DNA of 64,000 bases, taken from assembly GCA_028280285.1 (NCBI GenBank), contig JANQMA010000017.1, forward strand, positions 993 through 64,992. The letters run 5' to 3'. Below, in pieces: positions 2,984 to 23,161 of the stretch; positions within the stretch are counted from its first letter, which is position 1; every line of letters begins with the position of its first letter. A program made the translations under genes and the position numbers. The DNA is from Candidatus Omnitrophota bacterium (GTDB lineage Bacteria; Omnitrophota; Gorgyraeia; Zapsychrales; Zapsychraceae). The notes under the pieces are model-generated. The model worked only from the letters and a program-made list of their open reading frames with translations, had not been told where the DNA came from and searched no databases.

Positions 2984-3155
2984 GCCCAATAGTATATATC
3001 AACACATCTTTACGATCAATGTATAGTTTTATAACCTGTCTTCCAAAACAACCTACGAGGTTTAATAGGTAAAGCCCTATCGTAACCTCGTAGGTTTGCA
3101 AAGGGCCCTTGCAAATTTAAAGGTCCCATGATATTATTACTGCTCAAATTTCATT

Positions 3156-3334: not shown

Positions 3335-3718
3335 ATATTGGCGCTTTAAAAAAAGATGAAAATTGTTTTGAAACGAAAAATTTTATTACTATAATAACAT
3401 CATATTTTACGTAAATAGTTGAAAATAAAGAAGATAGAAAAAAGTTAGTCAATAGTAGAAATAAGTTAGTTTTGCTAAATTTCAGTTCTTTTTAGTTGTC
3501 CTCTGCTATATAAGTATTTAAACCGTCGAGAAGCAGAATTGTCCAGAGTTTTCGGGCAAGCTATCCTCACTTTTTCCTCGACGGTTTAAGTGCGGCTTTT
3601 CGATTGATGTTTGACATTAATAGAAAAGAGCTTGCCCCCAAATCTCCGGGCAGGCAATCATCTTTGGATCAAGCCTTTAATTACGCGTGAGTCAAGAATG
3701 AGAATACAAGAGGAAAAA

Positions 3719-4462: not shown

Positions 4463-4508
4463 ATTTAGTTATAGATTTACATGAATGAGGAAAAACCGGG
4501 AGACAAAA

Positions 4509-7046
4509 ATGAAATTCTTTAAATTATCAGTGAGCGTCTTTGTTGCAGCGCTATTGTGTTTGGTTTGTTCAAATTTAGCCATGGCCGACAACGGTCAAGT
4601 TGCCCGGATTATCGGAAACGGAATGGGCTATAAACAGTTAAACGCACCTACAACCTTTACGGAAAATAATGAACGTGTTGCAAATAAAGTTCGTGAGGTC
4701 CATGTAAACCACGCGCCAATACAAAGTTCTCCTGAGATTATTCAACTCAGTGCACTGGATAGCGGTCGCACACAACACAATGCGAGTGTGCCATCAAATA
4801 CAGCTTCCTATTCTTCCCGACGTGCTTCTTCCCAAAAACGCGATATTCCCGGAACGCCTGTTTCTTTAATTGATTTGCATCGTTTAAAAGAACTTGATCA
4901 AAAACGCACATATCAAGTCAATGACGAGCCTTTTGTAAAAATCGGACGACCAAGTGCCGGTTTAGTGGGGTCGTTTAAAATAGCGGCCATAGTTTTAGGC
5001 CTTTTTGTTGTGCTTGGTTTTTTTCTCTATAAATCAGGTATTGTGGATAATTGGGGTATTCGCACCAAACTTTATTTTGGTTTCGGCCTGCTTATTGTCT
5101 TGGCGATTACTTTGGGTCTGATCGATCAACGTTCTTTAAATAGTACGACGGCCCAAGCACAGATTGTTAAAGAGCTGCTTTTGGCACATTCTCTTGGGAT
5201 TAAATTAGAGTCTTATCAGAATGAATTTCTTTTAGTTGGCATAGAAGGTAGAGAAAAAGTAGAGGGCATATTAAAAAAACGCCAAGAGAGTGTAGAGGAG
5301 TTGGCCCGGTTACTTCAAAAGTTTAAAAACGAAAAAATAGAACCAAAGATCATAGAAGGGGTCGACAAGATTATCGAAAGAAATGTCCGCTACGAGGCTC
5401 TGTTTAGTGGCATTGTGGAAAAGTATCGGGCTATTCGTGTCGAAAAACAAACTTTAGATGAACAGGCAACGAACATTGAACGTAATGTTGAGCAGCTGTT
5501 GCATGAGCATGAGGCTGATTTAGAAAGCTTACGGGTATCGGGAGCTTCGGATGATGAAATTGGTCTGCAAATTAGATTGATTGAAGAGTTGACGGCAATG
5601 GAGGCGTTAATCCTCAAATTAAGTCATGATCAAGTTGAATTTATGCTCGATAAACGAACAGCCCGGATTGATGAGATGGGACAGTATTTGGGAGGAATTT
5701 ATTATTATCTGGAAGAAGCAAATTATCTTATCGGACAGTCTTCAGCGAATAGTGTAAAGAAGGCCAATGATTTAAGGATGCTTAAGGCAGTGGAAGGAGA
5801 CTTGAAACAGCTTTCTACCGGTTTGACGGATGTTATTGAAAATCAACTCATTGTTGAAGCAGATAATGTTGAATCGAGTGAGATTGTTAAAAGAATGGGC
5901 GCAACACTCGAAGCCTCTGTGCAATATATTCAAGAAAAAGCCTCTCAATTGCAAGCCGCGACCGAGAAAACATCGATGATGATGATCGGTTTTGTGCTGC
6001 TGTTGGGTGCTGCGGCTTCTTATATTGTAGCCGGTGGCATTGCAGCACCTCTGCAAAAAGCTATTGATGATCTTACTAAGGGCTCGGACCAGGTGGCTTC
6101 AGTATCTAATCAAATTTCCAATGCAAGCCAACAATTATCTGAGGGAGCGACCGAACAAGCATCGAGCTTGGAGGAAACGTCGAGCTCGCTCGATGAACTA
6201 TCTTCGATGACGAAAAGCAATGCGGATAGTGCTGCGAAAGCTAATCAAATGGCTGTTGCATCTCGCAGTGAGGCTGAACAAGGTGATAAAGCTATGAAAG
6301 AAATGCAAGAAGCCATGCATGGCATCAGAGAATCATCGGATAAGATCGGAAAGATTATTAAAACGATCGAGGAAATTGCTTTTCAAACAAACTTGCTTGC
6401 GCTTAATGCCGCTGTTGAGGCCGCACGTGCCGGGGAGCACGGAAAAGGTTTTGCTGTTGTGGCTGATGAGGTTCGCAATTTGGCTCAGCGTTCCGCTGTG
6501 GCTGCGAAGGATACAGCCCAGTTGATTGAAGAGAATATTGAAAAAGCAAGAAACGGTTCAGAGATCAGTGATAAGGCAGGTAAGGCATTGACCGAAATCA
6601 TGGACAGCTCTAAAAAGGTAGCAGATGTTGTGACAGAAATAGCCACCGCCTGTAAAGAACAGGCCGAAGGGATTAGTCAGATTTCCAATGCGGTTAGTCA
6701 ATTAGATCAAGTGACGCAACGTAACGCAGCCAATGCGGAAGAAAGCGCCGCCTCATCACAAGAGCTTAATACCCAAGCAGGAACGCTTAAAGATACAGTG
6801 GGTGAATTAATTTCTTTAGTCGGTGGAGCTAATGGCAACTATCGGCAAATGTTAATTACAGATAAAAGGGCTGATGCGAATAAAGCGAGTCGTAATATTG
6901 GAAACCGTCGCGCAGCCCCAAACAAGGCGGGTGGCGTGCAGGAAACGGCCGGACATGCTCATACAACAGGAAGGCTTCCCGAGGGGCCGCAAGTAAAAAA
7001 TGCCGAAGATGTTATTCCGCTTGATGATGATTTTAAAGATTTTTAA
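4509..7046 (+). CDS. methyl-accepting chemotaxis protein (MCP) with two TM segments and a periplasmic sensor region
   Basis: [18 protein letters not shown] signal/TM, second TM ([17 protein letters not shown]), and the highly conserved MCP signalling-domain core [46 protein letters not shown] Shine-Dalgarno before the ATG at 4509; the ORF also opens at 4485. Confidence 0.9.
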
Positions 7047-7061
7047 TGCAACACATTAACT

Positions 7062-9800
7062 ATGAATATTAACGAACTCGAAGAAGCGATAAATAAATTG
7101 GCGGCAGATTTGATTCTGCTTGATTCTTTTTCTAAAGAATCGATGGATGCCTTTTCAGGAACCCTCAATATTTTAAAGACGGCTTATGAAGGGGCGCATA
7201 GTGATGTTTTTCAAAGTATCACCACAACAAGTCAACAGATTTTATCTGACATTGCCGATGAGACAGATAAGAAAACTTCTGTGATTTTGGCATGTATTGT
7301 CAGTTCACTGCAGAATCTTATTAAAGATATTAAGCAAGACGCCGATGTTTCCGGGCATGTCGATCGTTTCAAAAAGGATATCAATGCGCTTATGGGTGGC
7401 GATAATCCGGCTGAACCCCCTCAAACTAATATGGCTGAATCACAGACTAAAGCCATACCAGAATTTATTTCTAACACACAGACTTTACTCGAGGAGATCG
7501 AGGCCGATCTTTTGGATATTGAAAAAAGCGAAAATCCTCAAGATAAAGTTAACAATATATTCAGAGCGTTTCATACCCTTAAGGGTGAGTCGAATCTACT
7601 CAATTTTAAAAACCTCAATACTCTGGCACATAAAGCCGAGGATTTGCTCGAATGCATTAGATTCAATACATTGTGTGTCGATGACAATATTAACACGGTT
7701 TTATTGAAGACGGTTGATGCTGTTAAACAATTTGTTAAGGCGCTTTCCTCTGATCCTTCTTTAGCGGTCAACATAGATTTATCTGATGTGACCGCAGAAA
7801 TTGAAAATATTATCACATCAAAATTTGAGGACAATTCTGATGAAACAGAGGAAGTACAAATAATTGAAAATGAAGTACAAAAAGAAGACCAACCGGTTGA
7901 AGAAGTGTCGCTAGAGCCACAAGAGCCGCAAGAGAGTGAAGAGAAAACAGAGGAGATTGAAATAGAACCATTTACCGCTAAAGTTCCTGAGCTTGATTTA
8001 TCTGAAGGAACAGATATTCTCTCAGAATTTCTGACGGAAGCCACAGAGGATCATTTGAATAATATTGAAGACGGGATCATGACTTTAGAAAAAGATCCTC
8101 AAGATAAAGAAGCGGTTGATGCCGTCTTTAGGGCGTTTCATACCATAAAGGGTCTGGCAGGATTTTTAGAGCTCGAAGATATTCGTACGCTTGCGCATGA
8201 TTCCGAGACAATGCTTGATATGGTTCGCAAAGGCACGCTCGGGTTTGACGGCATTGTGGTTGATCTTACCTTTGAGTCGGTGGATTGTTTGAAAAAATTG
8301 TTTGAACTGCTTTCTGAACAATTGGCCAATGGCGGCGAGCTGCAAAGTCCATATTTTGATGTCGGTCGTCAAATTCAGCGACTAAGAGAAGTTATTGCAG
8401 GCAAAGTGCCTGTGTCAACAAAACCTATTGGTGAAATTTTGGTCGAGGAGGGGGATATCACATCCGACGAGTTAGAAAAGGCACTTGAAATTCAAAACAA
8501 AGAACATCCGGAGAAAAAGGTTGGCGAAATCTTACAGGATAATAATGCGGCAAGTGCCAAGGATGTTAAAAAGGCCGTGAATATTCAAAAAGGTGCGGTT
8601 GAAAATTCGATTAAAATTCGCGTGGATAAGCTTGATGCCTTGATTGATCTTGTGGGTGAATTGGTTATTAGTGAAACACAGGTGGTTCAAAATCCGGTTA
8701 TTAAACAAATAGATAATCAACGTATTGCGAAAGATTTGGCGGAAGTGGATCGCATTACACGCCGGCTGCAAGAAGTGGCGATGGGGATGCGGCTTATTCC
8801 GGTTAAGCAAACTTTTCAGAAAATGCAGCGTATTATCCGTGATCTTTCTAAAAAGTCCAACAAAGACATCGATGTGGTGTTAATCGGGGAGGATACAGAG
8901 ATCGATAAGAATATGGTCGAGCTTATTAGTGATCCGCTGGTGCATATGGTGCGTAATTCTTGTGATCATGGCATTGAGGTCGGTGATGTGAGAGAGGCGA
9001 AAGGAAAACCAAGAGCCGGTAATGTCCAGTTGGCGGCTTTCCATAAGGGTGGCAATGTTGTGATTGAAATCCGCGATGATGGAGCCGGTTTAAATAAAGA
9101 TAAGATTTTGCAAAAGGCGATTGATCGGGGATTGGTTAAGGAAGGCGAAAAGGTTCCTGATAATCGTATTTGTCATATGATTTTTGAGCCGGGCTTTTCG
9201 ACCGCTGATCAAGTGACGGACATTTCAGGACGCGGTGTAGGTATGGATGTGGTTAAGCGTAATATCGAGCAGTTAAGAGGCAAGATTGATATTACAACGG
9301 AACAAGATAAAGGATCTGTGTTTGCGATACAACTGCCCATTACGCTGGCGATTATTGAAGGGATTGTTATTTTGGTTGGCGGGGAGCGTTATATTTTGCC
9401 TATTCATTCTATATTGGAGTTTGTCCAGCCTTTGCCGAAAAACCTGATTAATATTGTCGATAAAGGAGATATTTATAAGGTGCATGAGGAAGTCTATCCT
9501 TTGGTCCGTATGGATCATTTTTTTGGGGTCTCGTCTAAGGTTAGTGATTTTGAAGAAAAGGTGATTTGTTTAGTCGAATCGGATTATGGGCGGGCTTGTT
9601 TGCTTGTTGATGAACTGCTCGGTCAACAGCAAGTGGTGATCAAAAGCCTAGGGGAGAGGTTTAAAGACGTTAGTGGGATTAGTGGTGGAGCGATTTTGGG
9701 CGACGGACAGGTGGGCCTTATTTTAGATGTCAACGGTGTTATATCCCGTGCGCGTGAAGGTTTTTCGCAGGAGGCTGAATACGCCGAGGCGTCTGTCTAA
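7062..9800 (+). CDS. cheA: chemotaxis histidine kinase CheA, apparently with two Hpt domains
   Basis: Two Hpt-like motifs (FRAFHTLKGESNLL and FRAFHTIKGLAGFLEL), a dimerisation region, an HATPase core (HGIE..., IRDDGAGL, GRGVGMDVV) and a C-terminal CheW-like domain. Confidence 0.92.
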   Translation: MNINELEEAINKLAADLILLDSFSKESMDAFSGTLNILKTAYEGAHSDVFQSITTTSQQILSDIADETDKKTSVILACIVSSLQNLIKDIKQDADVSGHVDRFKKDINALMGGDNPAEPPQTNMAESQTKAIPEFISNTQTLLEEIEADLLDIEKSENPQDKVNNIFRAFHTLKGESNLLNFKNLNTLAHKAEDLLECIRFNTLCVDDNINTVLLKTVDAVKQFVKALSSDPSLAVNIDLSDVTAEIENIITSKFEDNSDETEEVQIIENEVQKEDQPVEEVSLEPQEPQESEEKTEEIEIEPFTAKVPELDLSEGTDILSEFLTEATEDHLNNIEDGIMTLEKDPQDKEAVDAVFRAFHTIKGLAGFLELEDIRTLAHDSETMLDMVRKGTLGFDGIVVDLTFESVDCLKKLFELLSEQLANGGELQSPYFDVGRQIQRLREVIAGKVPVSTKPIGEILVEEGDITSDELEKALEIQNKEHPEKKVGEILQDNNAASAKDVKKAVNIQKGAVENSIKIRVDKLDALIDLVGELVISETQVVQNPVIKQIDNQRIAKDLAEVDRITRRLQEVAMGMRLIPVKQTFQKMQRIIRDLSKKSNKDIDVVLIGEDTEIDKNMVELISDPLVHMVRNSCDHGIEVGDVREAKGKPRAGNVQLAAFHKGGNVVIEIRDDGAGLNKDKILQKAIDRGLVKEGEKVPDNRICHMIFEPGFSTADQVTDISGRGVGMDVVKRNIEQLRGKIDITTEQDKGSVFAIQLPITLAIIEGIVILVGGERYILPIHSILEFVQPLPKNLINIVDKGDIYKVHEEVYPLVRMDHFFGVSSKVSDFEEKVICLVESDYGRACLLVDELLGQQQVVIKSLGERFKDVSGISGGAILGDGQVGLILDVNGVISRAREGFSQEAEYAEASV

Positions 9801-9824: not shown

Positions 9825-10328
9825 ATGCCTGATGAAAATAATGTGCAAACAAGTGCTGTGTCACAGACATCAAATCACGAAGGAAAATACCTGACCTTTG
9901 CTTTGGGCAAAGAGGATTATGGGATTGAAATACTTAAAGTGCGGGAGATTATCGGCATGATGAGTATTACCCATGTGCCGCAAGTACCTAATTATATAAA
10001 AGGGGTTATTAACCTTCGTGGCAAAGTTATTCCTATTATCAATTTGCGTGCGAAGTTCAATATGGATGAAATTGAGCACACAGCAGAAACATGTATCATT
10101 GTGGTTGATATCGATGGCATTCTCATCGGCCTTTTAATTGATAAAGTCAATGATGTGCTGAACATTAACGGTGAGAGCATTGAACCTCCACCTCAATTTG
10201 GTTCGACAATTGACACCGATTTTATTTTGGGGATCGGTAAGGTTTCGGAAAACATGAAGATTTTGCTTAATATTAACAAGGTTCTTAAGGAAGATGTCGC
10301 CGTTGCTGTTGATATAGCTAATAAGTGA
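9825..10328 (+). CDS. cheW: chemotaxis coupling protein CheW
   Basis: 167-aa single CheW-like domain (LTFALGKEDYGIEILKVREI...VINLRGKVIPIINLR) immediately after cheA. Confidence 0.9.
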   Translation: MPDENNVQTSAVSQTSNHEGKYLTFALGKEDYGIEILKVREIIGMMSITHVPQVPNYIKGVINLRGKVIPIINLRAKFNMDEIEHTAETCIIVVDIDGILIGLLIDKVNDVLNINGESIEPPPQFGSTIDTDFILGIGKVSENMKILLNINKVLKEDVAVAVDIANK

Positions 10329-10831
10329 GTAACACAAATAAAAAACTAGAATACTATAATTGCTTTATTCAACCTGGACAGGTGGTTTACAGCCAGGATC
10401 CATCATTAATTTGTGCCGTGTGTGGCAATGGTGTTGTGATTGTGTTGCATGATCGTATTAAAAAGATTGGAGGAGCAGTGCATTGTGTTTATCCTAAATT
10501 AGGACGGGGTCAAAGAGCGAGTAATTATCATGTCGATAGTGCGATTACATCTTTAGTGCAAAGCCTCAAGTCTCTTAAGGCTTCTGCAAGAAGCCTTGAG
10601 GCACAATTATTCGGTGGCGGATGTTACCGTGGGTATGAAAAAAAACGCGCGGAGAAGGTTGTCCTACGCGTCAGAAAAATTTTAAAGGGGCTTAAAATCA
10701 ACATTGTTTCGGAAGATATAGGAGGAGTCCTCGGAAGGAAGGTCGTTTTTAACACGCGCTCAGGAGAGGTTGTTGTGCATAAAACGCGAAAGGTCCGGAA
10801 AACAGATTGGATGCCTGAGTGCCTGCTTTAG
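10325..10831 (+). CDS. cheD: chemoreceptor glutamine deamidase CheD
   Basis: 168-aa CheD-family sequence (LICAVCGNGVVIVLHD...GGAVHCVYP...KVVFNTRSGEVVV). Start overlaps the cheW stop. Confidence 0.8.
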   Translation: MSNTNKKLEYYNCFIQPGQVVYSQDPSLICAVCGNGVVIVLHDRIKKIGGAVHCVYPKLGRGQRASNYHVDSAITSLVQSLKSLKASARSLEAQLFGGGCYRGYEKKRAEKVVLRVRKILKGLKINIVSEDIGGVLGRKVVFNTRSGEVVVHKTRKVRKTDWMPECLL

Positions 10832-11676
10832 AGCTAAACGATAATATATACCGGTTATTTGCAGATTTTATTTATCAGAAAAGCGGAATCGACCTGGGAG
10901 CAAATAAAAAAGGTCTGTTGAAGACGAGACTTCAAAAGCGGATCAGTGCTCTTGGGCTTAGTTCTTTTGAAGAATATTACGAGTTGGTTGTTGAGCAGAA
11001 AGATAGCGAAGAGTTAGTCGGAATGCTTGATGTGGTCTCAACGAACTATACGTTTTTCTTTAGAGAAAGGGATCATTTTGATTTTCTACTTAATGAGGGT
11101 ATTGGATGTATTGCGGAACGTAAAAATGAAACAGGCATTAAACAGCTTAGGGCATGGTGTGCGGCTTCTTCGACCGGTGAGGAAGCATATTCGATTATGA
11201 TTTGCCTTTTGGAGAAAATAAATCCAAGCCTCGGGTGGGATATTAAGATGCTGGCAACAGATATCTCGACGCAAGTGTTAGAAAAGGCAAAGAGAGGAGT
11301 TTACGGGGAAAATCAAGTTCAGAAAATGCCGAAGGCATTTGTCCATAAATATCTTGATACAGTGACTAACAAAGATAATAACCAAGCGTATCGCGTAAAA
11401 CCGATTTTGAATAATTATATTACCTATAGAAGACTTAATCTGATGAATCAGCGATTTCCTTTTAAGGGTAAATTTGATTTTATCTTCTGCCGTAATGTCA
11501 TGATTTATTTTGATCGCCCAACGCAAGAAATGCTTATTAAGAAAATGGCCTCATATTTAGAGGACGACGGGTATCTTTTTATAGGACATTCAGAGGCGCT
11601 GCCTGTTTCTTGTAAAAAGTATTTAAAGACTTTAGGGTCGGCACTTTTTCAGAAAATAAAAGGTGTTGATTTATAA
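10819..11676 (+). CDS. cheR: chemotaxis protein methyltransferase CheR
   Basis: N-terminal CheR all-alpha region plus SAM-dependent MTase motifs (ALELNDNIYRLFADFIYQKSGIDL...RAWCAASSTGEEAYSIMI...FDFIFCRNVMIYFD). Confidence 0.9.
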   Translation: MPALELNDNIYRLFADFIYQKSGIDLGANKKGLLKTRLQKRISALGLSSFEEYYELVVEQKDSEELVGMLDVVSTNYTFFFRERDHFDFLLNEGIGCIAERKNETGIKQLRAWCAASSTGEEAYSIMICLLEKINPSLGWDIKMLATDISTQVLEKAKRGVYGENQVQKMPKAFVHKYLDTVTNKDNNQAYRVKPILNNYITYRRLNLMNQRFPFKGKFDFIFCRNVMIYFDRPTQEMLIKKMASYLEDDGYLFIGHSEALPVSCKKYLKTLGSALFQKIKGVDL

Positions 11677-11696: not shown

Positions 11697-13085
11697 ATGC
11701 GATTTTATAAAAGAATTGTTTTAGGGATGTTTTTTCTGGCGGTGCTTATGATGTATGCGTTTTATCTAGACTTTTCGATATTTCTTGAAAATAAAGAAAA
11801 TTATCAAACGACGATCGAGCAAAATAACACCGGTTGGCGTGAGATTCAAGTAATGAAGAAGGATGTGCTGGCGATAAAAACGGCCATGTATCAACTGGTA
11901 GATTGGGATGTAGCGGCTGATGCTGATTTTCGTAAAAAAGCAATTCTATCAACAATAATGGTGAAATTGCGTGATTCTCATAATCAACTACATTTGTTTT
12001 CGCTTAATGATCAAGGCCTATATGCCTCTTTAGAAAATCAAGTTTACGATCTTTTTAAGATTCGGGAAAACTCTTTTTATTACCAAAGTTTGATTGGTGG
12101 CACAAGCATACAACAAGGTGGGGAACAGATCAGTGTCTATTTACAACACCTCATGTGGGAAAATGAAAAGTGGTGGCAGGCTGCAGAGAAAAGTTTGAGC
12201 GATAACCGGGTTATAGAAACTCAGTGGCCACTCGAGCCCTTAATGACGCGCTATTTTTCCGGGGCGAAGCGGGATGAAGGGCTTATAGACTTGTTTGACC
12301 GCCTTAAAAAAAGTCGCGGTCTTATCTATCAGATGGTTGAATCGATGGAGAGAGAAGATTCCTTTACGCAGAAAGAGAATATTTTTCGCGACAATGAGTC
12401 TGTAAAACAACAGACTCACCAGGCACTTGTTGATCTGCGGGATTATTGGATGAGTCGGCAAAGCGAGTTGCAGCAAAGATGGACACTGCAATCTTCTCTG
12501 GCATTTGACTTAATTAATCAAATCGATCTATGGCTTGATGAACTGCTGGCCCAAAGAAATCAATTATTGGCTGATCAGATTATGACCAGTCAATCAGCCG
12601 ATAAAACGATCAATGAGCTTGAGCTGGGCATTACAGTATTAAATATTCTTATCATCGTCCTCATGTCTATTTTGATTATCCGGTTTTCAACGAAGTTTTT
12701 GTTTAGGTTGGATAATCTTAATGAGGGCACGCGTCAAATATGTAATGCCGCACAAGACCTTTATCAAAAGCAAATTGATGATATCCATGATATGGCGGAT
12801 GCCGTAAGCAGAAATGAACCATATATTGGTGAAAGGACCGATAGTTTAAAAAAGGACATTCGGATGACTAATAATTTGGTTGAGAATGTTGAGCTTCTCA
12901 ATGAATTGGTTTTGGATGTTAATCAAGCTGCTGGACGTAAAATGTTTTTTTTAGATCAGGACAATCATCGTGGTCCTGAGAGGCGAGGTGAGCGCGTTAA
13001 TAATAATCAACTCGAGGCATACTTTGAGAATTTAATAGGTGCTAAACAGCCACAAAAAATCCAAGCAATGCACGACGATAGGTGA
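11697..13085 (+). CDS. membrane sensor-like protein: two TM helices flanking a periplasmic domain of about 280 aa, with a short cytoplasmic tail and no recognisable output domain
   Basis: TM1 LGMFFLAVLMMYAFYL and TM2 ITVLNILIIVLMSILII read from the translation. No MCP signalling core or kinase motifs. Embedded between cheR and cheB. Confidence 0.55.
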   Translation: MRFYKRIVLGMFFLAVLMMYAFYLDFSIFLENKENYQTTIEQNNTGWREIQVMKKDVLAIKTAMYQLVDWDVAADADFRKKAILSTIMVKLRDSHNQLHLFSLNDQGLYASLENQVYDLFKIRENSFYYQSLIGGTSIQQGGEQISVYLQHLMWENEKWWQAAEKSLSDNRVIETQWPLEPLMTRYFSGAKRDEGLIDLFDRLKKSRGLIYQMVESMEREDSFTQKENIFRDNESVKQQTHQALVDLRDYWMSRQSELQQRWTLQSSLAFDLINQIDLWLDELLAQRNQLLADQIMTSQSADKTINELELGITVLNILIIVLMSILIIRFSTKFLFRLDNLNEGTRQICNAAQDLYQKQIDDIHDMADAVSRNEPYIGERTDSLKKDIRMTNNLVENVELLNELVLDVNQAAGRKMFFLDQDNHRGPERRGERVNNNQLEAYFENLIGAKQPQKIQAMHDDR

Positions 13086-13089
13086 ATAG

Positions 13090-14142
<1,053 letters not shown>

Positions 14143-14154
14143 AGGAATGTATAT

Positions 14155-14550
14155 ATGTTTCCTATTAAAAATATCATGACCAAAGATGTCGTTTCGGTTA
14201 CATCGGATACACCTATTTATGAGGCTATTGAGCAACTGGTCGTCAATAGGATCAGCGGTGTGCCGGTTGTAACGCACGATATGCGGCTGGTCGGTGTTTT
14301 AAGTGAGTGGGATGTTTTACAGTTATTAACGGAAAAGGAAGTTGGTAAAGAACGTACAGTCGAAAGCTATATGACTAAGGAAGTCATTAGTTTTGATGAA
14401 AATGAAAGCGCACTTAAAGTATGCGAATTTTTTAAAGACAGTTATAAGCGGCGTGCTCCTGTGATTAGAGATGGCAAGTTGGTTGGCGTTGTTAGTCGCC
14501 ATGATGTGATTGAATTAATTTTAAGAATACGAAGAAAGATTTCAAGATAG
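14155..14550 (+). CDS. CBS-pair domain protein
   Basis: 131 aa with two CBS motifs (IMTKDVVSV...VNRISGVPVV and MTKEVISF...RRAPVIRDGKLVGVVSRHDV). Confidence 0.75.
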   Translation: MFPIKNIMTKDVVSVTSDTPIYEAIEQLVVNRISGVPVVTHDMRLVGVLSEWDVLQLLTEKEVGKERTVESYMTKEVISFDENESALKVCEFFKDSYKRRAPVIRDGKLVGVVSRHDVIELILRIRRKISR

Positions 14551-14564
14551 AAAGGAATGGGATT

Positions 14565-14975
14565 ATGTGGAGAATTTTAGTGGTTGATGACAGTTTCACT
14601 AATCGTCAGCTTATTTTAGAAATTTTACGTGGCAAGGCAGAGTGTGATATGGCGGCCAATGGTATGGAGGCGATGACGGCGTATAAAGATTCATTAAATA
14701 ATAAACCGTACGATCTTATTTTGTTAGATGTGGCCATGCCGGAGATAAGCGGTACCGAGTTTTTAGGTCAACTAAGGGAACACGAGAAAACATCAGGCAT
14801 TGATTTAGGCGACGGCATACCGGTTATTATGGTAACGGCCTATGATAAACCTGTAATCGAGTCTTTCAATAAAGGGTGCGATGATTATATTTTAAAACCT
14901 GTGGACCCGGATGAATTACTGAGAAAAGTTGAGGATAAATTAGGCAAGGTTTCGAGCACTAATCAGGAAGAGTGA
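14565..14975 (+). CDS. CheY-like single-domain response regulator
   Basis: REC domain with the acidic pocket (VVDDS), phospho-acceptor Asp (LILLDVAMP), the T (VIMVTA) and the K (ILKP). Confidence 0.85.
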   Translation: MWRILVVDDSFTNRQLILEILRGKAECDMAANGMEAMTAYKDSLNNKPYDLILLDVAMPEISGTEFLGQLREHEKTSGIDLGDGIPVIMVTAYDKPVIESFNKGCDDYILKPVDPDELLRKVEDKLGKVSSTNQEE

Positions 14976-15907
14976 ATATGGAAGCAGAGCCGGTCGGTCC
15001 AACTGACCTTGAACGGGTTTTTCTTCTTCCGGGCGAGTATCATGTGACAGAAAAACCAAAATTTTTAGCGACACTTTTAGGATCATGTGTCGCGGTATGC
15101 CTTTATAACAAGCATAACGGGAGTGCTGCGTTGAATCATTTTGTGCGGGACAGATCATCAGCCGGTGACAATGATATAGGCCGGTTCGGAGACCTTTCGA
15201 TTAAACATATTGTCAAAGGTTTAAAAGCCTTTGATCCGGATCCTTCCCATTATGAGGCCAAAATATACGGCGGAGGTAATGTGGTTGGGCATTTGAACTT
15301 TGGTGTGAATATAGGCGCGCAAAATATTTCTGTAGCCAAAGAAGTATTGGGTGAGTTGCGTATCCCTATTGTGGAAGATGATACCGGTGGAGGACGGGGC
15401 AGAAAGATTTATTTTAACACATCTAATTTTGATGTCATGACCCGTTTTATGGGTCAGGAGAAAAGAGATTTTAGTAAGCAAGACGTCCGGGTTTTAATCG
15501 TCGATGATTCTATGCTTGTGCGTAGTGTTTTGCGTGGTGTGATTGAACAAACCCCAGGCATGAAAGTTGTTGCAGAGGCATCTGATGCTTTTGAAGCGCG
15601 CGATCTTATTATATCGACGGATCCTGATGTGATCAGTTTGGATATTGTGATGCCAAAAATCGATGGCCTTAAGTTTTTGGAAAAAATTATGGGGCATTAC
15701 CCAAAACCGGTGGTGATTGTTTCAACGATTGCCAAAAACAACTCTGATATAACGAAAAAAGCCCAGAAGCTGGGTGCTGTGGGTGTTGTCGACAAAGATG
15801 TCTTGGAGATTTATAAAGGACAGGAACGGGCCAAAAAAGAGTATATTCCCCTTTTGCGTATGGCAGCGGATCGAAAGGTTGAGAAAACAGTTAAGTATGA
15901 GCGTTAA
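14972..15907 (+). CDS. CheD-receiver fusion (N-terminal CheD domain fused to a C-terminal CheB-like REC domain)
   Basis: N-terminus HVTEKPKFLATLLGSCVAVCLYNK...IYGGGNV...GRKIYFNTSNFDV is CheD-like. C-terminus VRVLIVDDSMLVRSVL...VISLDIVMPKIDGLKFLEKIM...VVIVST is a receiver domain. Second cheD paralog in the cluster. Confidence 0.75.
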   Translation: MNMEAEPVGPTDLERVFLLPGEYHVTEKPKFLATLLGSCVAVCLYNKHNGSAALNHFVRDRSSAGDNDIGRFGDLSIKHIVKGLKAFDPDPSHYEAKIYGGGNVVGHLNFGVNIGAQNISVAKEVLGELRIPIVEDDTGGGRGRKIYFNTSNFDVMTRFMGQEKRDFSKQDVRVLIVDDSMLVRSVLRGVIEQTPGMKVVAEASDAFEARDLIISTDPDVISLDIVMPKIDGLKFLEKIMGHYPKPVVIVSTIAKNNSDITKKAQKLGAVGVVDKDVLEIYKGQERAKKEYIPLLRMAADRKVEKTVKYER

Positions 15908-16841
15908 TAAAATTCTTATTTATGAAGAAGTGGCCGATGATGTGGCCATGATCGAGTATCTTTGCAAGCAGCATGAGATGGAGCCGCATCTTGCACGTGA
16001 TTTTAGCGAGGCCGAGCATATTCTTAAAAGAGAGGATATTAGTGTTGCGGTAATTAATTACGCCCTTGAAAAGTTGACCTTAAAAAGTGATATCGCGGTT
16101 GTAGCGACAGGAGAATCAAGGCTGGAGGCCAGTATGAAGATTATTGGCTACAATCCCGTCTGTTTTATTCCTAAGCCTTTGACTTTTGCGACGATTTCAT
16201 TAGGGTTGACCAAGGCGGCCAAATCATTGTGTGAGACCAAAAGTTATCCTTCTAATGTTGTTAATGTGTTTATGATTTTAGGGGAAATGGAGGCAAAGCT
16301 TATAGCCTTAACAAAAGATGAGCATCACAATATGACTTTAAGTGAACTGGTTAAAGATCATTGTGAGGAGCATTGTCCGTTTGCATGCACCGGAAGCCAG
16401 ATGAGCCAAGACGATGAAAATGAGTATGAGGTGCTTAATTATTTTACATCCCGTGGGGCCTTATTTTGTAAACGTAAAAATATTTGTGAGCTATGGCGTT
16501 TTCATGACTGGTTGGCTGAGGATTATCCGCATCTTGTCAGTGAGCGTCCAACGGATTTGTTGCGGTGTGATTCGTTGAGTGAAGAAAAGATTGGTTTTAT
16601 GGACGGTCTGACACGGGTGATTCAAAAATATAATGACAAGATCAATTTGCTTTATGAGTTGAAGTTTGAGTATGACATGAAAAAATGTGACGCCAAAAAG
16701 GAAGGACTAGAGTTTCAAAAAGGAGATCATCTTTTTTCCAAGGCAGATGAAATTATGAATTGCACTAATTGTGCGTATTGCACAGAGCATGAATGCCCCT
16801 TGGATAAATTCTTTGAAATTTTTAAAAGGAAAGTTATTTAA
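15897..16841 (+). CDS. hypothetical protein with a degenerate REC-like N-terminus and Cys-rich C-terminal motifs
   Basis: Start reassigned to the ATG at 15897 (MSVNKILIYEE), overlapping the upstream stop. The 15774 start would overlap the upstream gene by 130 nt. Cys motifs HCEEHCPFAC and CTNCAYCTEHECP (C-x2-C-x2-C-x4-C-P, ferredoxin-like spacing but with x4). Confidence 0.5.
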   Translation: MSVNKILIYEEVADDVAMIEYLCKQHEMEPHLARDFSEAEHILKREDISVAVINYALEKLTLKSDIAVVATGESRLEASMKIIGYNPVCFIPKPLTFATISLGLTKAAKSLCETKSYPSNVVNVFMILGEMEAKLIALTKDEHHNMTLSELVKDHCEEHCPFACTGSQMSQDDENEYEVLNYFTSRGALFCKRKNICELWRFHDWLAEDYPHLVSERPTDLLRCDSLSEEKIGFMDGLTRVIQKYNDKINLLYELKFEYDMKKCDAKKEGLEFQKGDHLFSKADEIMNCTNCAYCTEHECPLDKFFEIFKRKVI

Positions 16842-16844: not shown

Positions 16845-18032
16845 ATGAAAAAAATACTTATTGTCGACGACGACCCAAATACAAGAAACCTCATGAAACA
16901 AGCCCTTAAAGGTAATGAGTTTATGGAGGCCGAAAACGGCATCAAGGCGCTCGAAGTGGTGGAAGACTTCGATCCCGATCTTATATTGCTTGATCAGAGA
17001 ATGCCCGAGATGGATGGCATTATGACGCTCGATGAGCTCAATAAAAAAGGCATTGAGTTTTATTGCATTATGGTGACGGCTGAAGGGACTGTGCAGTTGG
17101 CAACCGAATCGCTTAAAAGAGGTGCGATTGATTTTATTCAAAAGCCCTTTGATATTTTTGCCTTCCAGCATGTGGTGGAAAGATCCCTGCAGTATGTAGA
17201 AGTAGAAAAAGAGCGTAAACAAGCTCAAGAGGAGTTGGTTCGTCATAAAAATCATCTCGAAGAATTGGTTAAAGAAAGAACAGCCGAGGCCGATAGGGCA
17301 AGGCTCGCTGCCGAAGATGCCAATCAGGCTAAATCGGAGTTTTTGGCGAATATGAGTCATGAGCTACGCACACCGATGCATGCGATTCTAAGTTTTGCCA
17401 AGTTTGGCGATGACCGTATCGATAAAGTAGAAAAGGAAAAACTACACACATACTTTAAAGAAATACGCGGCAGCGGGGAGAGGCTGCTGAGGCTGCTTAA
17501 TGATCTTCTCGATCTTTCTAAATTGGAGGCCGGTCAGACAACATATGAAATGAAACAAGAAAAACTCTCTATTCTTATGCAAAGAGTTATCTTGGAGCTT
17601 TCATCTGTCTGTGAAGAAAAGAAAGTTTCCGTGGTATTTCAGGAGCCGGGCTTTGATGATCAAGTTTATGCTGATGCCAGCAAAATTATTCAGGTAATGG
17701 TTAATCTATTATCCAATGCCGTTAAGTTTTCTCCGGAGGGAGAAAGCATTACGATTGATTTACAAGATGATGGGGACAACATTATATATGCCGTAATTGA
17801 TAAAGGTGTGGGTATTCCGAAAGATGAGTTAGAGCATGTGTTTGATAAGTTCGTTCAAAGTAGTAAAACAAAATCCGGAGCCGGGGGAACAGGTCTTGGG
17901 TTGGCTATTGCCAAAAAGATTGTCGTTGATCATGACGGAACGATTTGGGCTGAGGAAAATCCAGAAGGAGGTGCGATCTTTAAAATGCGTCTTCCTAAGA
18001 AAAAGCCGGAGAGTGATTTCTCAGCATCATAG
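16845..18032 (+). CDS. hybrid response regulator-histidine kinase (REC-HisKA-HATPase)
   Basis: REC (ILIVDDDPNTRN...LILLDQRMPEMDG), canonical H-box ANMSHELRTPMHAIL, N box LLSNAVKFS, G1 DKGVGI, G2 GGTGLGLAI. Confidence 0.88.
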   Translation: MKKILIVDDDPNTRNLMKQALKGNEFMEAENGIKALEVVEDFDPDLILLDQRMPEMDGIMTLDELNKKGIEFYCIMVTAEGTVQLATESLKRGAIDFIQKPFDIFAFQHVVERSLQYVEVEKERKQAQEELVRHKNHLEELVKERTAEADRARLAAEDANQAKSEFLANMSHELRTPMHAILSFAKFGDDRIDKVEKEKLHTYFKEIRGSGERLLRLLNDLLDLSKLEAGQTTYEMKQEKLSILMQRVILELSSVCEEKKVSVVFQEPGFDDQVYADASKIIQVMVNLLSNAVKFSPEGESITIDLQDDGDNIIYAVIDKGVGIPKDELEHVFDKFVQSSKTKSGAGGTGLGLAIAKKIVVDHDGTIWAEENPEGGAIFKMRLPKKKPESDFSAS

Positions 18033-18053
18033 GTAACATAAGGAGAATAAACA

Positions 18054-19136
18054 GTGCCAGATAATCATTCACGCATTCTCATTGTCGATGATGAACCGTC
18101 TAATATTGCTGTTTTAGAAAATATTTTTGAAGGAGAGTTTGTCCTTAAGTCTGTGTCTTCGGGCAAAGAAGCGCTTGAGGCGATAGAGGATTTTTATCCA
18201 GACATTGTCTTACTTGACATTATGATGCCCGGGCTTGACGGGTATGAAGTCTGCCAAAGGCTTCGTGACAGAGAAGAAACGCGCTTTACAAAAATTATAT
18301 TTGTCAGCGCCAAAGAAAAGACAGAAGACAGGCTTAAAGGTTACGGTACGGGGGCGGATGATTATATCACCAAGCCTTTTGATGCCGATGAAATAGCGGC
18401 TAAGGTGCGTATTTTTTTAAAGCTCAAATATGTCGAAGAAGTTGATGAGATCAAAAATGAATTTTTAAATATGTTTGTTAAGGAAAAAAAGACGCCTTTG
18501 CGCGAGATTTTGGGGTTTGCTTCTCTTTTAAAAAAGAGTGTCTTGCCGTCTTTTGCGGATCAGGTTTCGGTTGATGAAATCATTGAACGCGGTAATCACT
18601 TATGGGAGCTTTCTAAAAAAACAAAACTTTTGTGTGAGCTTAAACACAACAAACCATTAACGCAGCAACACCAGGAGATTAATTCCCTGATTGATATGGC
18701 TGTGGAAAATGCCAAGGCTAGATGTAAAAACAAAGATATTTCGTTTCATATACCGAATGGATTTAAACAAGAGGTTTTTCTCGATCCTTCTCTATTTGCG
18801 AAGGCTTTAGCGTATGTGATTGAGAATGCTATTGAGCATTCTCAATCCGGGGGAGAAATAACCGTTTTTTGTGAAGAGGCGGATGAACGATTTTCAGTGA
18901 AAGTTAAAGATCAAGGGCAGCGCATTGACAATAAAAATATGCGAAATATTTTTAATGAATTTGCCACGTCTAATGATAATGCTCCAGAACGTCGTGGAGG
19001 GATCAACTTAACGATTGCCAGAAGAATTGCTTGGCTTCATCAAGGGGATTTTAACATTAGCAATAATGAACATGAGGGTGTCACGTTTGAGTTTAGTTTG
19101 CCTAAAACCGTCGAAAGAGGCAGTTTAACGGATTAA
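18054..19136 (+). CDS. REC-containing histidine-kinase-like protein with degenerate H-box and G2 box (likely pseudokinase)
   Basis: REC domain intact (ILIVDDEPSNIAV...[13 protein letters not shown]). The H-box reads LNMFVKEKKTPLREILGF, where the phospho-accepting His is replaced. The ATP-lid G2 reads RRGGINLT instead of GxGxG. Start GTG at 18054 with AAGGAG Shine-Dalgarno. Confidence 0.8.
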   Translation: MPDNHSRILIVDDEPSNIAVLENIFEGEFVLKSVSSGKEALEAIEDFYPDIVLLDIMMPGLDGYEVCQRLRDREETRFTKIIFVSAKEKTEDRLKGYGTGADDYITKPFDADEIAAKVRIFLKLKYVEEVDEIKNEFLNMFVKEKKTPLREILGFASLLKKSVLPSFADQVSVDEIIERGNHLWELSKKTKLLCELKHNKPLTQQHQEINSLIDMAVENAKARCKNKDISFHIPNGFKQEVFLDPSLFAKALAYVIENAIEHSQSGGEITVFCEEADERFSVKVKDQGQRIDNKNMRNIFNEFATSNDNAPERRGGINLTIARRIAWLHQGDFNISNNEHEGVTFEFSLPKTVERGSLTD

Positions 19137-19159
19137 CGTATCTTTGGGGGAATCGACTT

Positions 19160-20248
19160 ATGGACAGCCATAATCATAGAACCAAAATTTTGGCGGTGGA
19201 TGATGAGCCGACCAACATAACGATTTTCGAAAACATCTTTGAAGATAAAAAACGCTTTGAGTTAAGAACAGCTTCTTCAGGAGAAGAGGCTTTGGGTGTG
19301 ATGCCGGTGTTCAGACCGGATGTTGTTCTTTTGGATATCATGATGCCCGGCATAGACGGTTATGAAGTTTGTCAGAAAATAAGAGATGATGAAAACCTTC
19401 GTTTTACAAAGACCATTATGGTTTCCGCGAAAGCCATGCATGAGGAGAGAATTAGAGGCTATGAGTGTGGGGCCAATGATTATGTCACCAAACCATTTGA
19501 TGAAGATGAACTTCTTATGAAAGTTGAAAGTTTCTTTCAACTGAAATTTGCTAGTGAAATTAGTCAAGTGAAAGAAAATTTGATTAAGCTTGTTTCTCAT
19601 GAGTTGCGCACCCCACTTAACGGTATTTTGGGTTTTAGTGCCTTGCTTGATAAAAGTAATACGATAGGCGAAAGCGAAAAAAGATATATCCATCAGGTGA
19701 TGGAATGCGGTAATCAGCTGCTTGAGTTTTCGCAGAAAGCCTTATTGTTGTGTGATCTAAGATCAGGCAAAGCGCTCACCAAACAGTGGTGTTCGCTTAA
19801 TGAGATTATCACAAAGATTATTGCCAAACTGAAAGTCAAAGCCTCTGAATCGAATATAACTTTTTCTTATGAGGACAAAATCGATGAAGCGGTTTTAGGT
19901 GATTCTGTTCTTATTGAGCAGGCCTTAACATTTGTTATTGAAAATGCGGTTAAATTTTCCCCGGCCAATGGGGAGGTGTCCATACTGGCACAAAGTACCG
20001 GTCATGAGTGCATCATCCATGTGCAGGATCAAGGAGAGGGGATTGATGAAAGGCGGGTCGATGAGATATTTGAGGAAATGTCGCTCGATAATATGGATAA
20101 TCACCAGGAAGGCCAAGGCCTAAGCCTTGCTATTGCACAAAGTATTATGCAGTTACATGGCGGAACATTACAGTTATCGGAAAATTCTAAAGAGGGGTGT
20201 ACGTTTACGTTTAAATTTCCACCGTCGAAAGATAGCACTGTTAAGTAG
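19160..20248 (+). CDS. hybrid response regulator-histidine kinase, paralog of 18054..19136
   Basis: Same architecture and roughly 50% identical N-terminus as the upstream gene, but with the canonical H-box [15 protein letters not shown] plus DQGEGI and GQGLSLAI. Confidence 0.85.
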
Positions 20249-20262
20249 AAATTAGGGGAAAA

Positions 20263-23118: not shown

Positions 23119-23161
23119 AGCATTTACTTAAAAAATGTAAGGCAAAAGGGGAGACTGCTCT

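What the first reader, a model, noticed from the sequence alone, without database searches (positions are those of the whole stretch)
14972..15907. CheD-receiver domain fusion as a second CheD paralog in the same operon
The N-terminal 160 aa carry the CheD deamidase signature (GSCVAVC, the catalytic Cys region). The C-terminal 130 aa form a complete receiver domain resembling the CheB N-terminus. A phosphorylation-controlled CheD would add a feedback layer. CheD normally interacts with CheC, which is absent here. The stand-alone CheD at 10325 is also present.
Basis: seen in the sequence. Interest (0 to 1): 0.55.

Follow-up and report, generated by a model that had tools for sequence, protein, structure and literature searches.

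The report
CheD deamidase fused to a CheB-type receiver
A chemotaxis operon encodes a real, widely conserved protein that joins the receptor-modifying enzyme CheD to a phosphorylation switch taken from CheB. It appears to be what remains of a CheD-CheB fusion after the CheB enzyme part decayed and was lost, and it points to an unstudied way of tuning bacterial chemoreceptors.

Summary
It has a CheD domain (PF03975, 73 bits), then a receiver domain (PF00072, 77 bits) whose best matches are CheB N-termini.

It is not a frameshift artefact. More than 120 protein clusters and 80 species-level genomes carry the same architecture. These come from Planctomycetota, Omnitrophota, Nitrospinota, Nitrospirota, Myxococcota and others, all MAGs. 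The CheD triad (Thr32/Cys37/His54) and the receiver phospho-acceptor set (D176, D177, D222, S249, K273) are essentially invariant.

New findings:
1. The nearest relatives are about 510-aa CheD-REC-CheB_methylest proteins. The clade sister to the two-domain family has a dead esterase (Ser to Asn, His lost; 22/22), while the others keep Ser-His-Asp (33/33). CheD-REC is therefore most simply a CheD::CheB fusion that lost its esterase.
2. The operon's stand-alone "CheD" (10325-10831) belongs to a subfamily with Ala and Gly at the canonical Thr and Cys positions.
3. The residues that bind CheC in Bacillus are replaced, and no CheC or CheX lies in the window.

Most likely function, inferred: a CheA-phosphorylated regulator of receptor deamidation or binding. 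I found no paper describing it. Interest is moderate.

The parts
14978..15907 (+). cheD-REC coding sequence: 309 aa plus stop. An alternative GTG start at 14972 gives 311 aa.
   Evidence: ORF list. 100% identical to 309-aa P0001. Pfam finds CheD plus Response_reg.
15005..15457 (+). CheD (CNF1/YfiH-like cysteine hydrolase) domain, aa 10-160. Catalytic Thr32 (15071-15073), Cys37 (15086-15088), His54 (15137-15139).
   Evidence: PF03975 at 73 bits. The AF2 model matches T. maritima CheD 2f9z_C with TM 0.89 and rmsd 1.6 A. The triad is invariant in 121 and in 80 homologs. Triad identity is from PMC7022378.
15458..15484 (+). Inter-domain linker, aa 161-169.
   Evidence: Same reading frame throughout. 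The junction motif R-x-D-x-x-x-R-x-x-R-V-L-I-V-D-D-S is conserved in the family consensus.
15485..15802 (+). CheB-type receiver domain, aa 170-275. D176, D177, phospho-acceptor D222 (15641-15643), S249/T250, K273.
   Evidence: PF00072 at 77 bits. CheB model PRK00742 at 122 bits. Foldseek matches CheB REC 3t8y with TM 0.87-0.89. Residues are invariant.
15803..15904 (+). C-terminal helix and tail, aa 276-309. It corresponds to the end of the CheB receiver and the start of the CheB inter-domain linker.
   Evidence: The match to the CheB model runs to model position 138 of 357. Helix 282-298 appears in the model. L276, Y279 and G281 are nearly invariant.
10325..10831 (+). Stand-alone CheD-family gene (CheD1) with a non-canonical active-site region (A..CGNG in place of T..LGSC) and a conserved R-x-x-D-W-x-P-E tail.
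   Evidence: PF03975 at 58 bits. Alignments to T. maritima CheD and to orthologs. 26% identical to the fusion's CheD domain.
7062..9800 (+). CheA histidine kinase with two Hpt (P1) stretches. It is the presumed phosphodonor.
   Evidence: Pfam finds Hpt x2, H-kinase_dim, HATPase_c and CheW. It is the only CheA in the window.
4485..7046 (+). Methyl-accepting chemotaxis protein, the presumed substrate. Heptad-spaced modification sites include Gln-containing pairs (EQ in the match starting at aa 554, QE in the match starting at aa 756).
   Evidence: PF00015. Motif scan.
9825..10328 (+). CheW coupling protein.
   Evidence: PF01584 at 135 bits.
10819..11676 (+). CheR methyltransferase.
   Evidence: PF01739 and PF03705.
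13096..14142 (+). Canonical CheB (receiver plus methylesterase) with an intact Ser170/His196/Asp292 triad.
   Evidence: Pfam and NCBIfam, 435 bits against a cutoff of 293. Triad check.
14565..14975 (+). CheY-like single-domain response regulator. Its stop codon lies 2 nt before the cheD-REC ATG.
   Evidence: PF00072. Sequence.

Best explanation
The gene encodes a genuine two-domain response regulator. An N-terminal, catalytically competent CheD (cysteine-hydrolase chemoreceptor glutamine deamidase) is joined to a C-terminal CheB-type receiver domain.

Origin. It descends from a three-domain CheD-REC-CheB fusion, that is, CheD fused to the front of a whole CheB. In that lineage the serine methylesterase first lost its catalytic Ser and His and was then deleted. 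CheD was left under the control of CheB's phosphorylation switch.

How it works (inferred). CheA~P in the same operon (912 aa, two Hpt domains) phosphorylates Asp222, as it does for CheB. The phosphorylation state of the receiver then sets how CheD engages the chemoreceptor signalling helices, either by deamidating or demethylating Gln/Glu sites or by binding them and modulating CheA. This would give a kinase-dependent feedback branch. It would run beside the ordinary CheR/CheB methylation system and replace, within one polypeptide, the CheY~P-CheC-CheD loop of Bacillus.

Shown: the architecture, its conservation, intact active-site and phospho-acceptor residues, the CheB origin of the receiver, the esterase decay series, and the che-operon and CheA-adjacent contexts.

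Inferred: the phosphodonor, the substrate, and the sign of the regulation (activation or inhibition).
For: Architecture and fold:
- Pfam, NCBIfam and PDB matches.
- AF2 model with pLDDT 90. Its two halves match CheD 2f9z_C (TM 0.89) and CheB REC 3t8y (TM 0.87-0.89).

Purifying selection on both functions:
- Thr/Cys/His of CheD and the D, D, D, S/T, K set of the receiver are invariant in 121 close homologs.
- The same residues are kept in 79-80 of 80 species-level orthologs from at least six phyla.

Origin:
- Among the best 150 50%-identity representatives, 56 are CheD-REC-CheB_methylest and 45 are CheD-REC.
- On the CheD+REC region, the two-domain clade has NJ bootstrap 86. It groups with a three-domain clade (bootstrap 91), and the union has bootstrap 85.
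- That sister clade has Asn for the esterase Ser and no His in 22/22 representatives. The other three-domain representatives keep Ser-His-Asp in 33/33.
- CheD and receiver residues are kept in both groups.
- The window protein ends where the CheB receiver meets its linker (model position 138 of 357).

Coupling to CheA:
- Of 64 loci with enough upstream sequence, 24 have a ~700-740-aa CheA directly upstream and 16 lie in other che contexts.
- In the window the gene starts 2 nt after the cheY stop, inside MCP-CheA-CheW-CheD1-CheR-x-CheB-CBS-CheY-CheD-REC.

Substrate plausibility: the operon's MCP has Gln at two canonical heptad sites.

CheC independence: the family has Val-Val where CheC-dependent CheDs have Met-Phe (PMC3513319).
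Against: - No biochemical data exist for any member, and all carriers are uncultured MAGs.
- The model's pTM is only 0.62, and neither coordinates nor PAE were available. No receiver-CheD interface could be examined, and nothing shows that phosphorylation changes CheD activity.
- 24 of 64 loci have no che gene within 10 kb, so a receptor target is not evident from context everywhere.
- The operon already has an intact CheB that could deamidate the MCP on its own.
- The tree is a neighbour-joining tree on cluster representatives with midpoint rooting. A few two-domain representatives sit inside three-domain clades, and these may be fragments or independent losses.
Confidence: 0.6

Rival explanations
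1. Assembly or sequencing frameshift that artificially joins a cheD gene to a following cheY- or cheB-like gene.
Against: The frame is continuous. The same fusion, with the same length and a conserved junction, occurs in at least 120 protein clusters and 80 species-level genomes from independent assemblies, including closed chromosomes of about 3.4-6.2 Mb.
Confidence: 0.01
2. The receiver is not an allosteric switch for CheD. It acts as a phosphate sink or as a docking module that brings a constitutively active CheD to CheA and the receptor array, or it is tethered to the receptors by CheD. Either would shape CheY~P kinetics.
For: Phospho-acceptor residues are conserved, which a sink also requires. 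A CheA is often directly adjacent. The model's low pTM (0.62) is compatible with two domains that do not pack against each other.
Against: The receiver was inherited from CheB, where it is an allosteric regulator. The segment after the conserved Lys (L276, Y279, G281, helix 282-298) is strongly conserved although no esterase follows it. That suggests a retained intramolecular or partner interface.
Confidence: 0.2
3. The CheD domain has been re-targeted and modifies or binds something other than chemoreceptors, for example CheA or another signalling protein. The protein would then be the output regulator of a CheA pathway with a non-motility function.
For: 24 of 64 loci are CheA/CheD-REC pairs, often with no MCP, CheW, CheR or CheB within 10 kb, and 24 of 64 have no che neighbours at all. 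In the window and its closest relatives the gene sits among REC-histidine-kinase hybrids and Hpt proteins.
Against: The catalytic triad and the IGxxN region are canonical for CheD. In the window and in several relatives the gene is embedded among MCP, CheR and CheB genes. MCP genes are commonly dispersed in genomes, so their absence nearby is weak evidence.
Confidence: 0.12
4. A decaying remnant. After esterase loss the protein is on its way to pseudogenisation and has no specific function.
For: It derives from a lineage that did lose one domain.
Against: Catalytic and phospho-acceptor residues are essentially invariant across at least 200 sequences that diverge to 40% identity and span several phyla. 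This is incompatible with neutral decay.
Confidence: 0.02

Closest known systems
CheB (receiver + protein-glutamate methylesterase/glutamine deamidase; PDB 1a2o, 6ymz, 3t8y)
   Same: The receiver is of the CheB type (43-45% identity), including the segment leading into the CheB linker. It has a complete phospho-acceptor set. The predicted logic is the same: a CheA-phosphorylated domain controls a receptor-modifying enzyme in a che operon.
   Different: There is no CheB_methylest domain. The catalytic domain is a cysteine hydrolase (CheD) and lies N-terminal to the receiver, the reverse of CheB's domain order. A complete CheB is encoded separately in the operon.
CheD of Thermotoga maritima / Bacillus subtilis (PDB 2f9z chain C; PF03975)
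   Same: Same fold (TM 0.89, rmsd 1.6 A). Same Thr/Cys/His triad and the IGxxN motif (PMC7022378).
   Different: It carries a fused receiver. It lacks the Met-Phe pair conserved in CheC-dependent CheDs, having Val-Val instead. It scores far below every NCBIfam CheD equivalog cutoff (97 bits against 223). No CheC is nearby.
Uncharacterised CheD-REC-CheB_methylest fusion proteins (about 500-545 aa; annotated 'CheB' by JGI and NCBI)
   Same: The CheD and receiver parts are collinear and 31-45% identical over aa 12-275. The same catalytic and phospho-acceptor residues are kept. The sister clade already has an inactive esterase.
   Different: The window protein stops at the receiver/linker boundary and has no esterase domain at all. 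The ORF downstream is not a remnant of one.
Bacillus subtilis CheC/CheD/CheY~P adaptation loop
   Same: Conceptually both link the kinase's phospho-output to the availability or activity of CheD at the receptors (PMC3513319).
   Different: In Bacillus three proteins are needed and CheC is the intermediary. Here the phospho-sensing domain is covalently attached to CheD, and the CheC-binding residues are absent.
CheV (CheW + C-terminal receiver)
   Same: A chemotaxis-array protein with a C-terminal receiver that is phosphorylated by CheA and used for adaptation. This rests on my own knowledge and the MiST2 classification rule, PMC2808908.
   Different: The partner domain is a scaffold (CheW), not an enzyme. 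The CheV receiver is not CheB-derived.

Membership tests
CheD (PF03975, chemoreceptor glutamine deamidase) | Pfam CheD domain above the gathering score | tested here: met
   73 bits against a cutoff of 25, aa 63-158.
CheD (PF03975, chemoreceptor glutamine deamidase) | Catalytic triad equivalent to T. maritima Thr21/Cys27/His44 | tested here: met
   Thr32/Cys37/His54 align to the triad. They are invariant in the family. The triad is defined in PMC7022378.
CheD (PF03975, chemoreceptor glutamine deamidase) | CheD three-dimensional fold | tested here: met
   AF2 model against 2f9z_C: TM 0.89, rmsd 1.6 A, E 2.7e-15.
CheD (PF03975, chemoreceptor glutamine deamidase) | Full-length equivalence to a curated CheD (NCBIfam equivalog cutoff) | tested here: not met
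   The best CheD equivalog, NF010013, scores 96.6 bits against a cutoff of 223. This is domain-level membership only.
CheD (PF03975, chemoreceptor glutamine deamidase) | Deamidation of MCP glutamines | not testable with these tools
   The only evidence is that the operon's MCP has Gln at two heptad-spaced sites.
CheC-dependent CheD (Bacillus/Thermotoga type) | Met-Phe pair at the CheC interface (B. subtilis M101/F102) and a CheC partner | tested here: not met
   The aligned positions are Val102-Val103, nearly invariant in the family. The criterion is from PMC3513319. No CheC or CheX was found in the window. The rest of the genome was not seen.
Response regulator receiver (PF00072) | Pfam domain above cutoff, plus the acidic pair, the phospho-acceptor Asp, the Ser/Thr and the Lys | tested here: met
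   77 bits against a cutoff of 30. D176, D177, D222, S249/T250 and K273 are invariant.
Response regulator receiver (PF00072) | Phosphorylation by a cognate histidine kinase (CheA) | not testable with these tools
   Context only. The gene lies in the CheA operon, and CheA is directly upstream in 24 of 64 related loci.
CheB (protein-glutamate methylesterase) | CheB_methylest domain (PF01339) with a Ser-His-Asp triad | tested here: not met
   No PF01339 hit. The protein ends at CheB model position 138 of 357. It is therefore not a CheB, although the receiver is of CheB type.
CheD::CheB fusion lineage (CheD-REC-CheB_methylest) | Collinear CheD plus CheB-type receiver, grouping phylogenetically with the three-domain proteins | tested here: met
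   Single collinear matches over aa 12-275. Architectures. NJ grouping with the dead-esterase clade, bootstrap 85.
CheD::CheB fusion lineage (CheD-REC-CheB_methylest) | Presence of the third (esterase) domain | tested here: not met
   It is absent from the protein. It is also not encoded by the downstream ORF. The window protein is a derived, truncated member.

The most novel reading that the evidence does not exclude
CheD-REC is a functional replacement for CheB. After the serine esterase of an ancestral CheD::CheB fusion died, the cysteine hydrolase CheD took over as the phosphorylation-activated receptor demethylase/deamidase. An NCBIfam model name credits T. maritima CheD with both activities. 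In the Omnitrophota-like operons it would work together with a co-conserved, active-site-rewired CheD1, which would act as a non-enzymatic receptor-binding kinase modulator. One operon would then run two mechanistically different, kinase-controlled adaptation enzymes plus a CheD pseudoenzyme.
Probability: 0.25. Interest if true: 0.65.

Novelty: new variant of a known kind. Interest (0 to 1): 0.5.

Why it matters
The role of CheD outside the CheC-containing Firmicutes and Thermotoga is poorly understood. In Bacillus its binding role matters more than its enzymatic one (PMC3513319).

A CheD wired directly to a CheA-phosphorylatable switch is a natural experiment. It asks whether CheD activity or receptor binding is meant to be under kinase feedback, and it collapses the three-protein CheY~P-CheC-CheD loop into one polypeptide.

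The series found here runs from active CheD::CheB, to dead esterase, to esterase lost. It is a clean example of domain decay inside a signalling enzyme in which the regulatory domain is retained for the surviving partner.

The family spans hundreds of uncultured species in Planctomycetota, Omnitrophota, Nitrospinota and other phyla. It is currently annotated only as 'response regulator', 'CheD' or 'CheB', so pathway reconstructions miss it or mislabel it.

The result also flags a CheD subfamily without the canonical nucleophile. That subfamily should not be annotated as a deamidase without a test.

Tried and rejected
1. Frameshift or assembly artefact. Rejected on cross-assembly conservation.
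2. Downstream ORF 15897-16841 as a split-off remnant of the lost esterase. hmmsearch --max with a profile of the dead-esterase domains gave no hit at all, and Pfam gave nothing.
3. Co-conservation of that downstream ORF, or of ORF 11697-13085, with the fusion. Neither has a homolog in any of the 89 related loci held at the time.
4. Looking up the window's own contig through P0001. It is not on record, so the source organism was not identified. The closest relatives are MAGs labelled Planctomycetales or Omnitrophota.
5. Foldseek against AFDB, to find annotated UniProt entries with the same architecture. The library was unavailable.
6. Examining the receiver-CheD interface in the AF2 model. Only pLDDT, pTM and secondary structure are returned, with no coordinates or PAE.
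7. Literature. No paper in the held library contains 'CheD-REC', 'CheD-CheY' in the fusion sense, 'CheD domain' in a chemotaxis sense, 'CheD-CheB', 'CheD fusion' or 'CheD fused'. One search was swamped by unrelated 'chedr' matches. The key reviews (Wuichet & Zhulin 2010; Galperin 2006 and 2010) are not held, so prior mention cannot be excluded.
8. The apparent 3-kb ORF-free stretch at 1-3100. It is simply a long minus-strand ORF running off the window start.
9. Calling CheD1 'catalytically dead'. I softened this, because a Cys three residues upstream (Ser in one ortholog) and the His are themselves conserved.
Full report
**What is in the sequence**

The window carries a long plus-strand chemotaxis operon:
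- MCP (4485-7046)
- CheA (7062-9800)
- CheW (9825-10328)
- a CheD-family gene, here called CheD1 (10325-10831)
- CheR (10819-11676)
- an unknown 462-aa protein (11697-13085)
- CheB (13096-14142)
- a CBS-pair protein (14155-14550)
- CheY (14565-14975)
- the gene in question (14972/14978-15907)
- an unknown 314-aa ORF, then three REC-histidine-kinase hybrids, a CHASE hybrid kinase and a GAF protein

The ORF is uninterrupted. The likely start is ATG 14978, 2 nt after the cheY stop, with AGGAAGAG upstream. That gives 309 aa, identical to a database protein (P0001).

Pfam finds CheD (PF03975; 73 bits, cutoff 25) and Response_reg (PF00072; 77 bits, cutoff 30).

The receiver is clearly of the CheB type:
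- NCBIfam's CheB model matches aa 170-306 (model positions 2-138 of 357) at 122 bits. NarL and CheY models score about 58 bits.
- CheB structures 6ymz and 1a2o are the top PDB sequence hits.
- It is 43% identical to the operon's own CheB receiver and 31% identical to CheY.

An AlphaFold2 model built on a 119-sequence alignment has mean pLDDT 90. Its halves superpose on T. maritima CheD (2f9z_C; TM 0.89, rmsd 1.6 A) and on the CheB receiver (3t8y; TM 0.87-0.89). No solved structure contains both domains. The pTM of 0.62 means the relative placement of the two domains is not settled.

**Not an artefact, and not rare**

A search of 5.8 billion proteins returned at least 120 clusters with both Pfam domains. 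They are 300-330 aa long and 48-70% identical.

A scan of one genome per GTDB species found 415 stretches encoding a relative of the query. The best 80, kept as loci, are full-length or nearly so. They come from MAGs labelled Planctomycetota (Phycisphaerae, Sedimentisphaerales), Omnitrophota, Nitrospinota, Nitrospirota, Desulfarculia, Myxococcota, Bdellovibrionota and Lentisphaerales, and include closed chromosomes.

In 121 close homologs the following are invariant: Thr32, Gly35, Ser36, Cys37 and His54 of CheD, and D176, D222, S249, T250 and K273 of the receiver. D177 is 99% conserved. In the 80 species-level orthologs, which diverge to about 40% identity, all of these are kept in 79-80 of 80, except that T250 alternates with Ser.

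The T. maritima triad Cys27/His44/Thr21 is documented in PMC7022378. The alignment to 2f9z_C places the window residues on it. A frameshift or chance explanation is therefore excluded.

**Where it comes from**

An exhaustive HMMER search of 1.84 billion cluster representatives gave 93 proteins at E <= 1e-30. Many are about 500-545 aa long and match the query collinearly over aa 12-275. Pfam shows these are CheD-Response_reg-CheB_methylest, that is, CheD fused to the N-terminus of a whole CheB.

Among the best 150 representatives:
- 56 have this three-domain architecture.
- 45 are CheD-REC.
- 18 are CheD only.
- 2 are CheD-esterase without a receiver.

One representative (P0267), counted by that classification among the CheD-only group, is CheD-CheR by Pfam.

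A neighbour-joining tree of the shared CheD+REC region gives these bootstrap values from 100 replicates:
- 86 for one main clade holding the two-domain proteins, including the window's.
- 91 for its sister group, one clade of three-domain proteins.
- 85 for the union of the two, set against the remaining three-domain proteins.

The decisive detail is the esterase active site. All 33 representatives of the other three-domain clades keep GxSTGG / xH[IM]P / GMGxDG, the CheB Ser-His-Asp triad. All 22 representatives of the sister clade have Asn (once Asp) for the Ser and no His. Both groups keep the CheD triad and the receiver residues.

The simplest history is: an active CheD::CheB fusion, then esterase inactivation, then esterase deletion. 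The window protein ends exactly where the CheB receiver meets its linker. The ORF downstream is not a leftover esterase.

Caveats: the tree is NJ on representatives with midpoint rooting, and four short two-domain representatives sit inside the dead-esterase clade. These may be fragments or independent losses.

**The 'other CheD' is not canonical**

CheD1 (10325-10831) is only 26% identical to the fusion's CheD domain. Aligned to T. maritima CheD and to the fusion, it has Ala at the catalytic Thr position and Gly at the catalytic Cys position (…ICAV-CGNGVV… against …ATL-LGSCVA…). It also lacks the IGxxN motif.

This is a subfamily trait. In 19 orthologs:
- G-N-G is invariant.
- A Cys three residues upstream is kept in 18 of 19, with Ser in one.
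- The His is invariant. One further ortholog outside this alignment, in L014, shows Tyr at that position.
- A C-terminal R-x-x-D-W-x-P-E tail is conserved.

CheD1 is therefore either a pseudoenzyme that only binds receptors or an enzyme with a shifted nucleophile. The sequence cannot tell which. Either way, the fusion carries the only canonical CheD active site in the operon.

CheD1-type genes lie between CheA and CheR. They co-occur with CheD-REC in the same operon or assembly in the window, in L006, L008, L014, L015 and L085, and in the pair L092/L010.

**Context**

Of the 64 related loci with more than 2.5 kb of upstream sequence:
- 24 have a ~700-740-aa CheA directly upstream of CheD-REC.
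- 24 have no che gene within 10 kb, mostly Planctomycetota.
- 16 lie in other che clusters.

In the window's closest relatives the gene ends a super-operon: CheA1-CheD1-CheR-CheB-CheX-CheY-CheX…Hpt-REC-(REC-HK)-REC-CheA2-Hpt-CheD-REC. The window has a condensed version without CheX, CheA2 or a separate Hpt, but its single CheA has two Hpt domains.

No CheC or CheX was detected in the window. The rest of the genome is unseen.

The family has Val-Val where CheC-dependent CheDs have the Met-Phe pair (B. subtilis M101/F102). According to PMC3513319, that pair is conserved only in CheC-containing species.

The operon's MCP has heptad-spaced modification sites that include two Gln-containing pairs: [32 protein letters not shown] and ASSQELNT. 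The operon's CheB has an intact triad.

**How it most likely works**

Shown: a protein under strong purifying selection for both a CheD active site and a phosphorylatable CheB-type receiver. It is encoded in che operons or next to a CheA, and it descends from CheD::CheB.

Inferred:
- CheA~P phosphorylates D222, as it does the homologous CheB receiver.
- The receiver's state controls CheD's action on the receptor signalling helices, whether deamidation, possibly demethylation, or binding that modulates CheA.

This would give a kinase-dependent feedback branch in parallel with CheR/CheB. In Bacillus the equivalent link needs CheY~P and CheC (PMC3513319).

The receiver stayed strictly conserved after the esterase died and disappeared. 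This argues that it serves CheD, or serves signalling directly, and is not a relic.

I cannot say whether phosphorylation activates CheD, as in CheB-like relief of inhibition, or removes CheD from the receptors, as in the Bacillus logic.

The main rival is that the receiver is a phosphate sink or docking module with CheD constitutive, at about 0.2. A re-targeted CheD acting on non-receptor substrates is about 0.12.

**Comparison with what is known, and novelty**

It works like a CheB with a different catalytic domain in the opposite order. It is not a CheB, because the esterase domain is absent. It is a CheD at the level of domain, triad and fold. It fails every curated full-length CheD equivalog cutoff and lacks the CheC-interface residues.

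The architecture already sits in public databases. JGI calls it 'CheD/CheY-like', NCBI calls it 'response regulator', and the three-domain relatives are called 'CheB'. It is therefore not unseen.

I found no paper in the held library that describes a CheD-receiver or CheD-CheB fusion. The classic comparative reviews are not held, so an earlier mention cannot be excluded.

I rate it a new variant of a known kind, with moderate interest (0.5). It is a real, widespread and uncharacterised adaptation component with a clear evolutionary history and directly testable predictions. It is built from familiar parts, and all known carriers are uncultured.

Noticed in passing
window 10325-10831 (+); orthologs in L008 7572-8102, L015 7546-8088, L085 11816-12331, P0122-P0137: The stand-alone 'CheD' belongs to a small subfamily with Ala/Ser and Gly at the canonical catalytic Thr and Cys positions. 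The subfamily has an invariant G-N-G, a conserved Cys shifted three residues upstream, and a conserved R-x-x-D-W-x-P-E tail. It is either a pseudoenzyme or has a rewired active site.
   Followed up: yes
proteins P0149, P0157, P0160, P0192 and 18 other representatives; locus L090 8001-9566: One clade of CheD-REC-CheB_methylest proteins has an inactivated esterase (Ser to Asn, His lost) but intact CheD and receiver residues. In L090 such a protein is followed directly by a normal CheB.
   Followed up: yes
proteins P0267 (417 aa) and P0262 (358 aa): Other CheD fusions exist: CheD-CheR methyltransferase, and CheD-CheB_methylest without a receiver.
   Followed up: no
window 7062-9800 (+): The operon's CheA has two Hpt (P1) domains. 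Close relatives instead have a separate small Hpt protein immediately upstream of CheD-REC (L004 9534-9932, L006 9576-10004). This may mean a dedicated phosphotransfer domain serves CheD-REC.
   Followed up: partly
window 15897-16841 (+): A 314-aa ORF overlaps the stop of cheD-REC by 11 nt. It has no Pfam hit and contains Cys-rich motifs (CEEHCPFAC…, CTNCAYCTEHECP). By eye its N-terminus looks like a degenerate receiver. It is not homologous to the lost esterase and has no homolog in the 89 related loci held at the time.
   Followed up: partly
window 11697-13085 (+): A 462-aa protein lies between cheR and cheB. It has no significant Pfam match and no homolog in the related loci.
   Followed up: no
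window 7029-7043 (+), the C-terminus of the MCP: The MCP ends in …DDDFKDF. This resembles the aromatic C-terminal pentapeptide that tethers CheR and CheB in some receptors. The comparison is from memory and was not tested.
   Followed up: no
window 16845-23830 (+): Three consecutive REC-HisKA-HATPase hybrid response regulators, a CHASE-domain hybrid kinase with two receivers, and a GAF protein follow the che genes on the same strand. Similar REC-HK genes sit in the relatives' che super-operons (L004, L006, L091-L093).
   Followed up: partly
window 38520-46034 (+): A giant 2504-aa ORF whose only Pfam match is a weak PTS-HPr-like stretch at aa 2268-2338.
   Followed up: no
window 3611-4462 (+): A eukaryotic-type (alpha) carbonic anhydrase gene lies immediately upstream of the MCP that opens the che operon.
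   Followed up: no
window 27132-27479 and 27898-28272 (+): Two small single-domain PilZ (c-di-GMP-binding) proteins lie close together. A PilZ gene also sits next to CheA in relative L004 (40-423).
   Followed up: no
window 1-3100 (-): No ORF is listed here because a single minus-strand ORF of at least 999 codons runs off the start of the window. It was not identified.
   Followed up: partly
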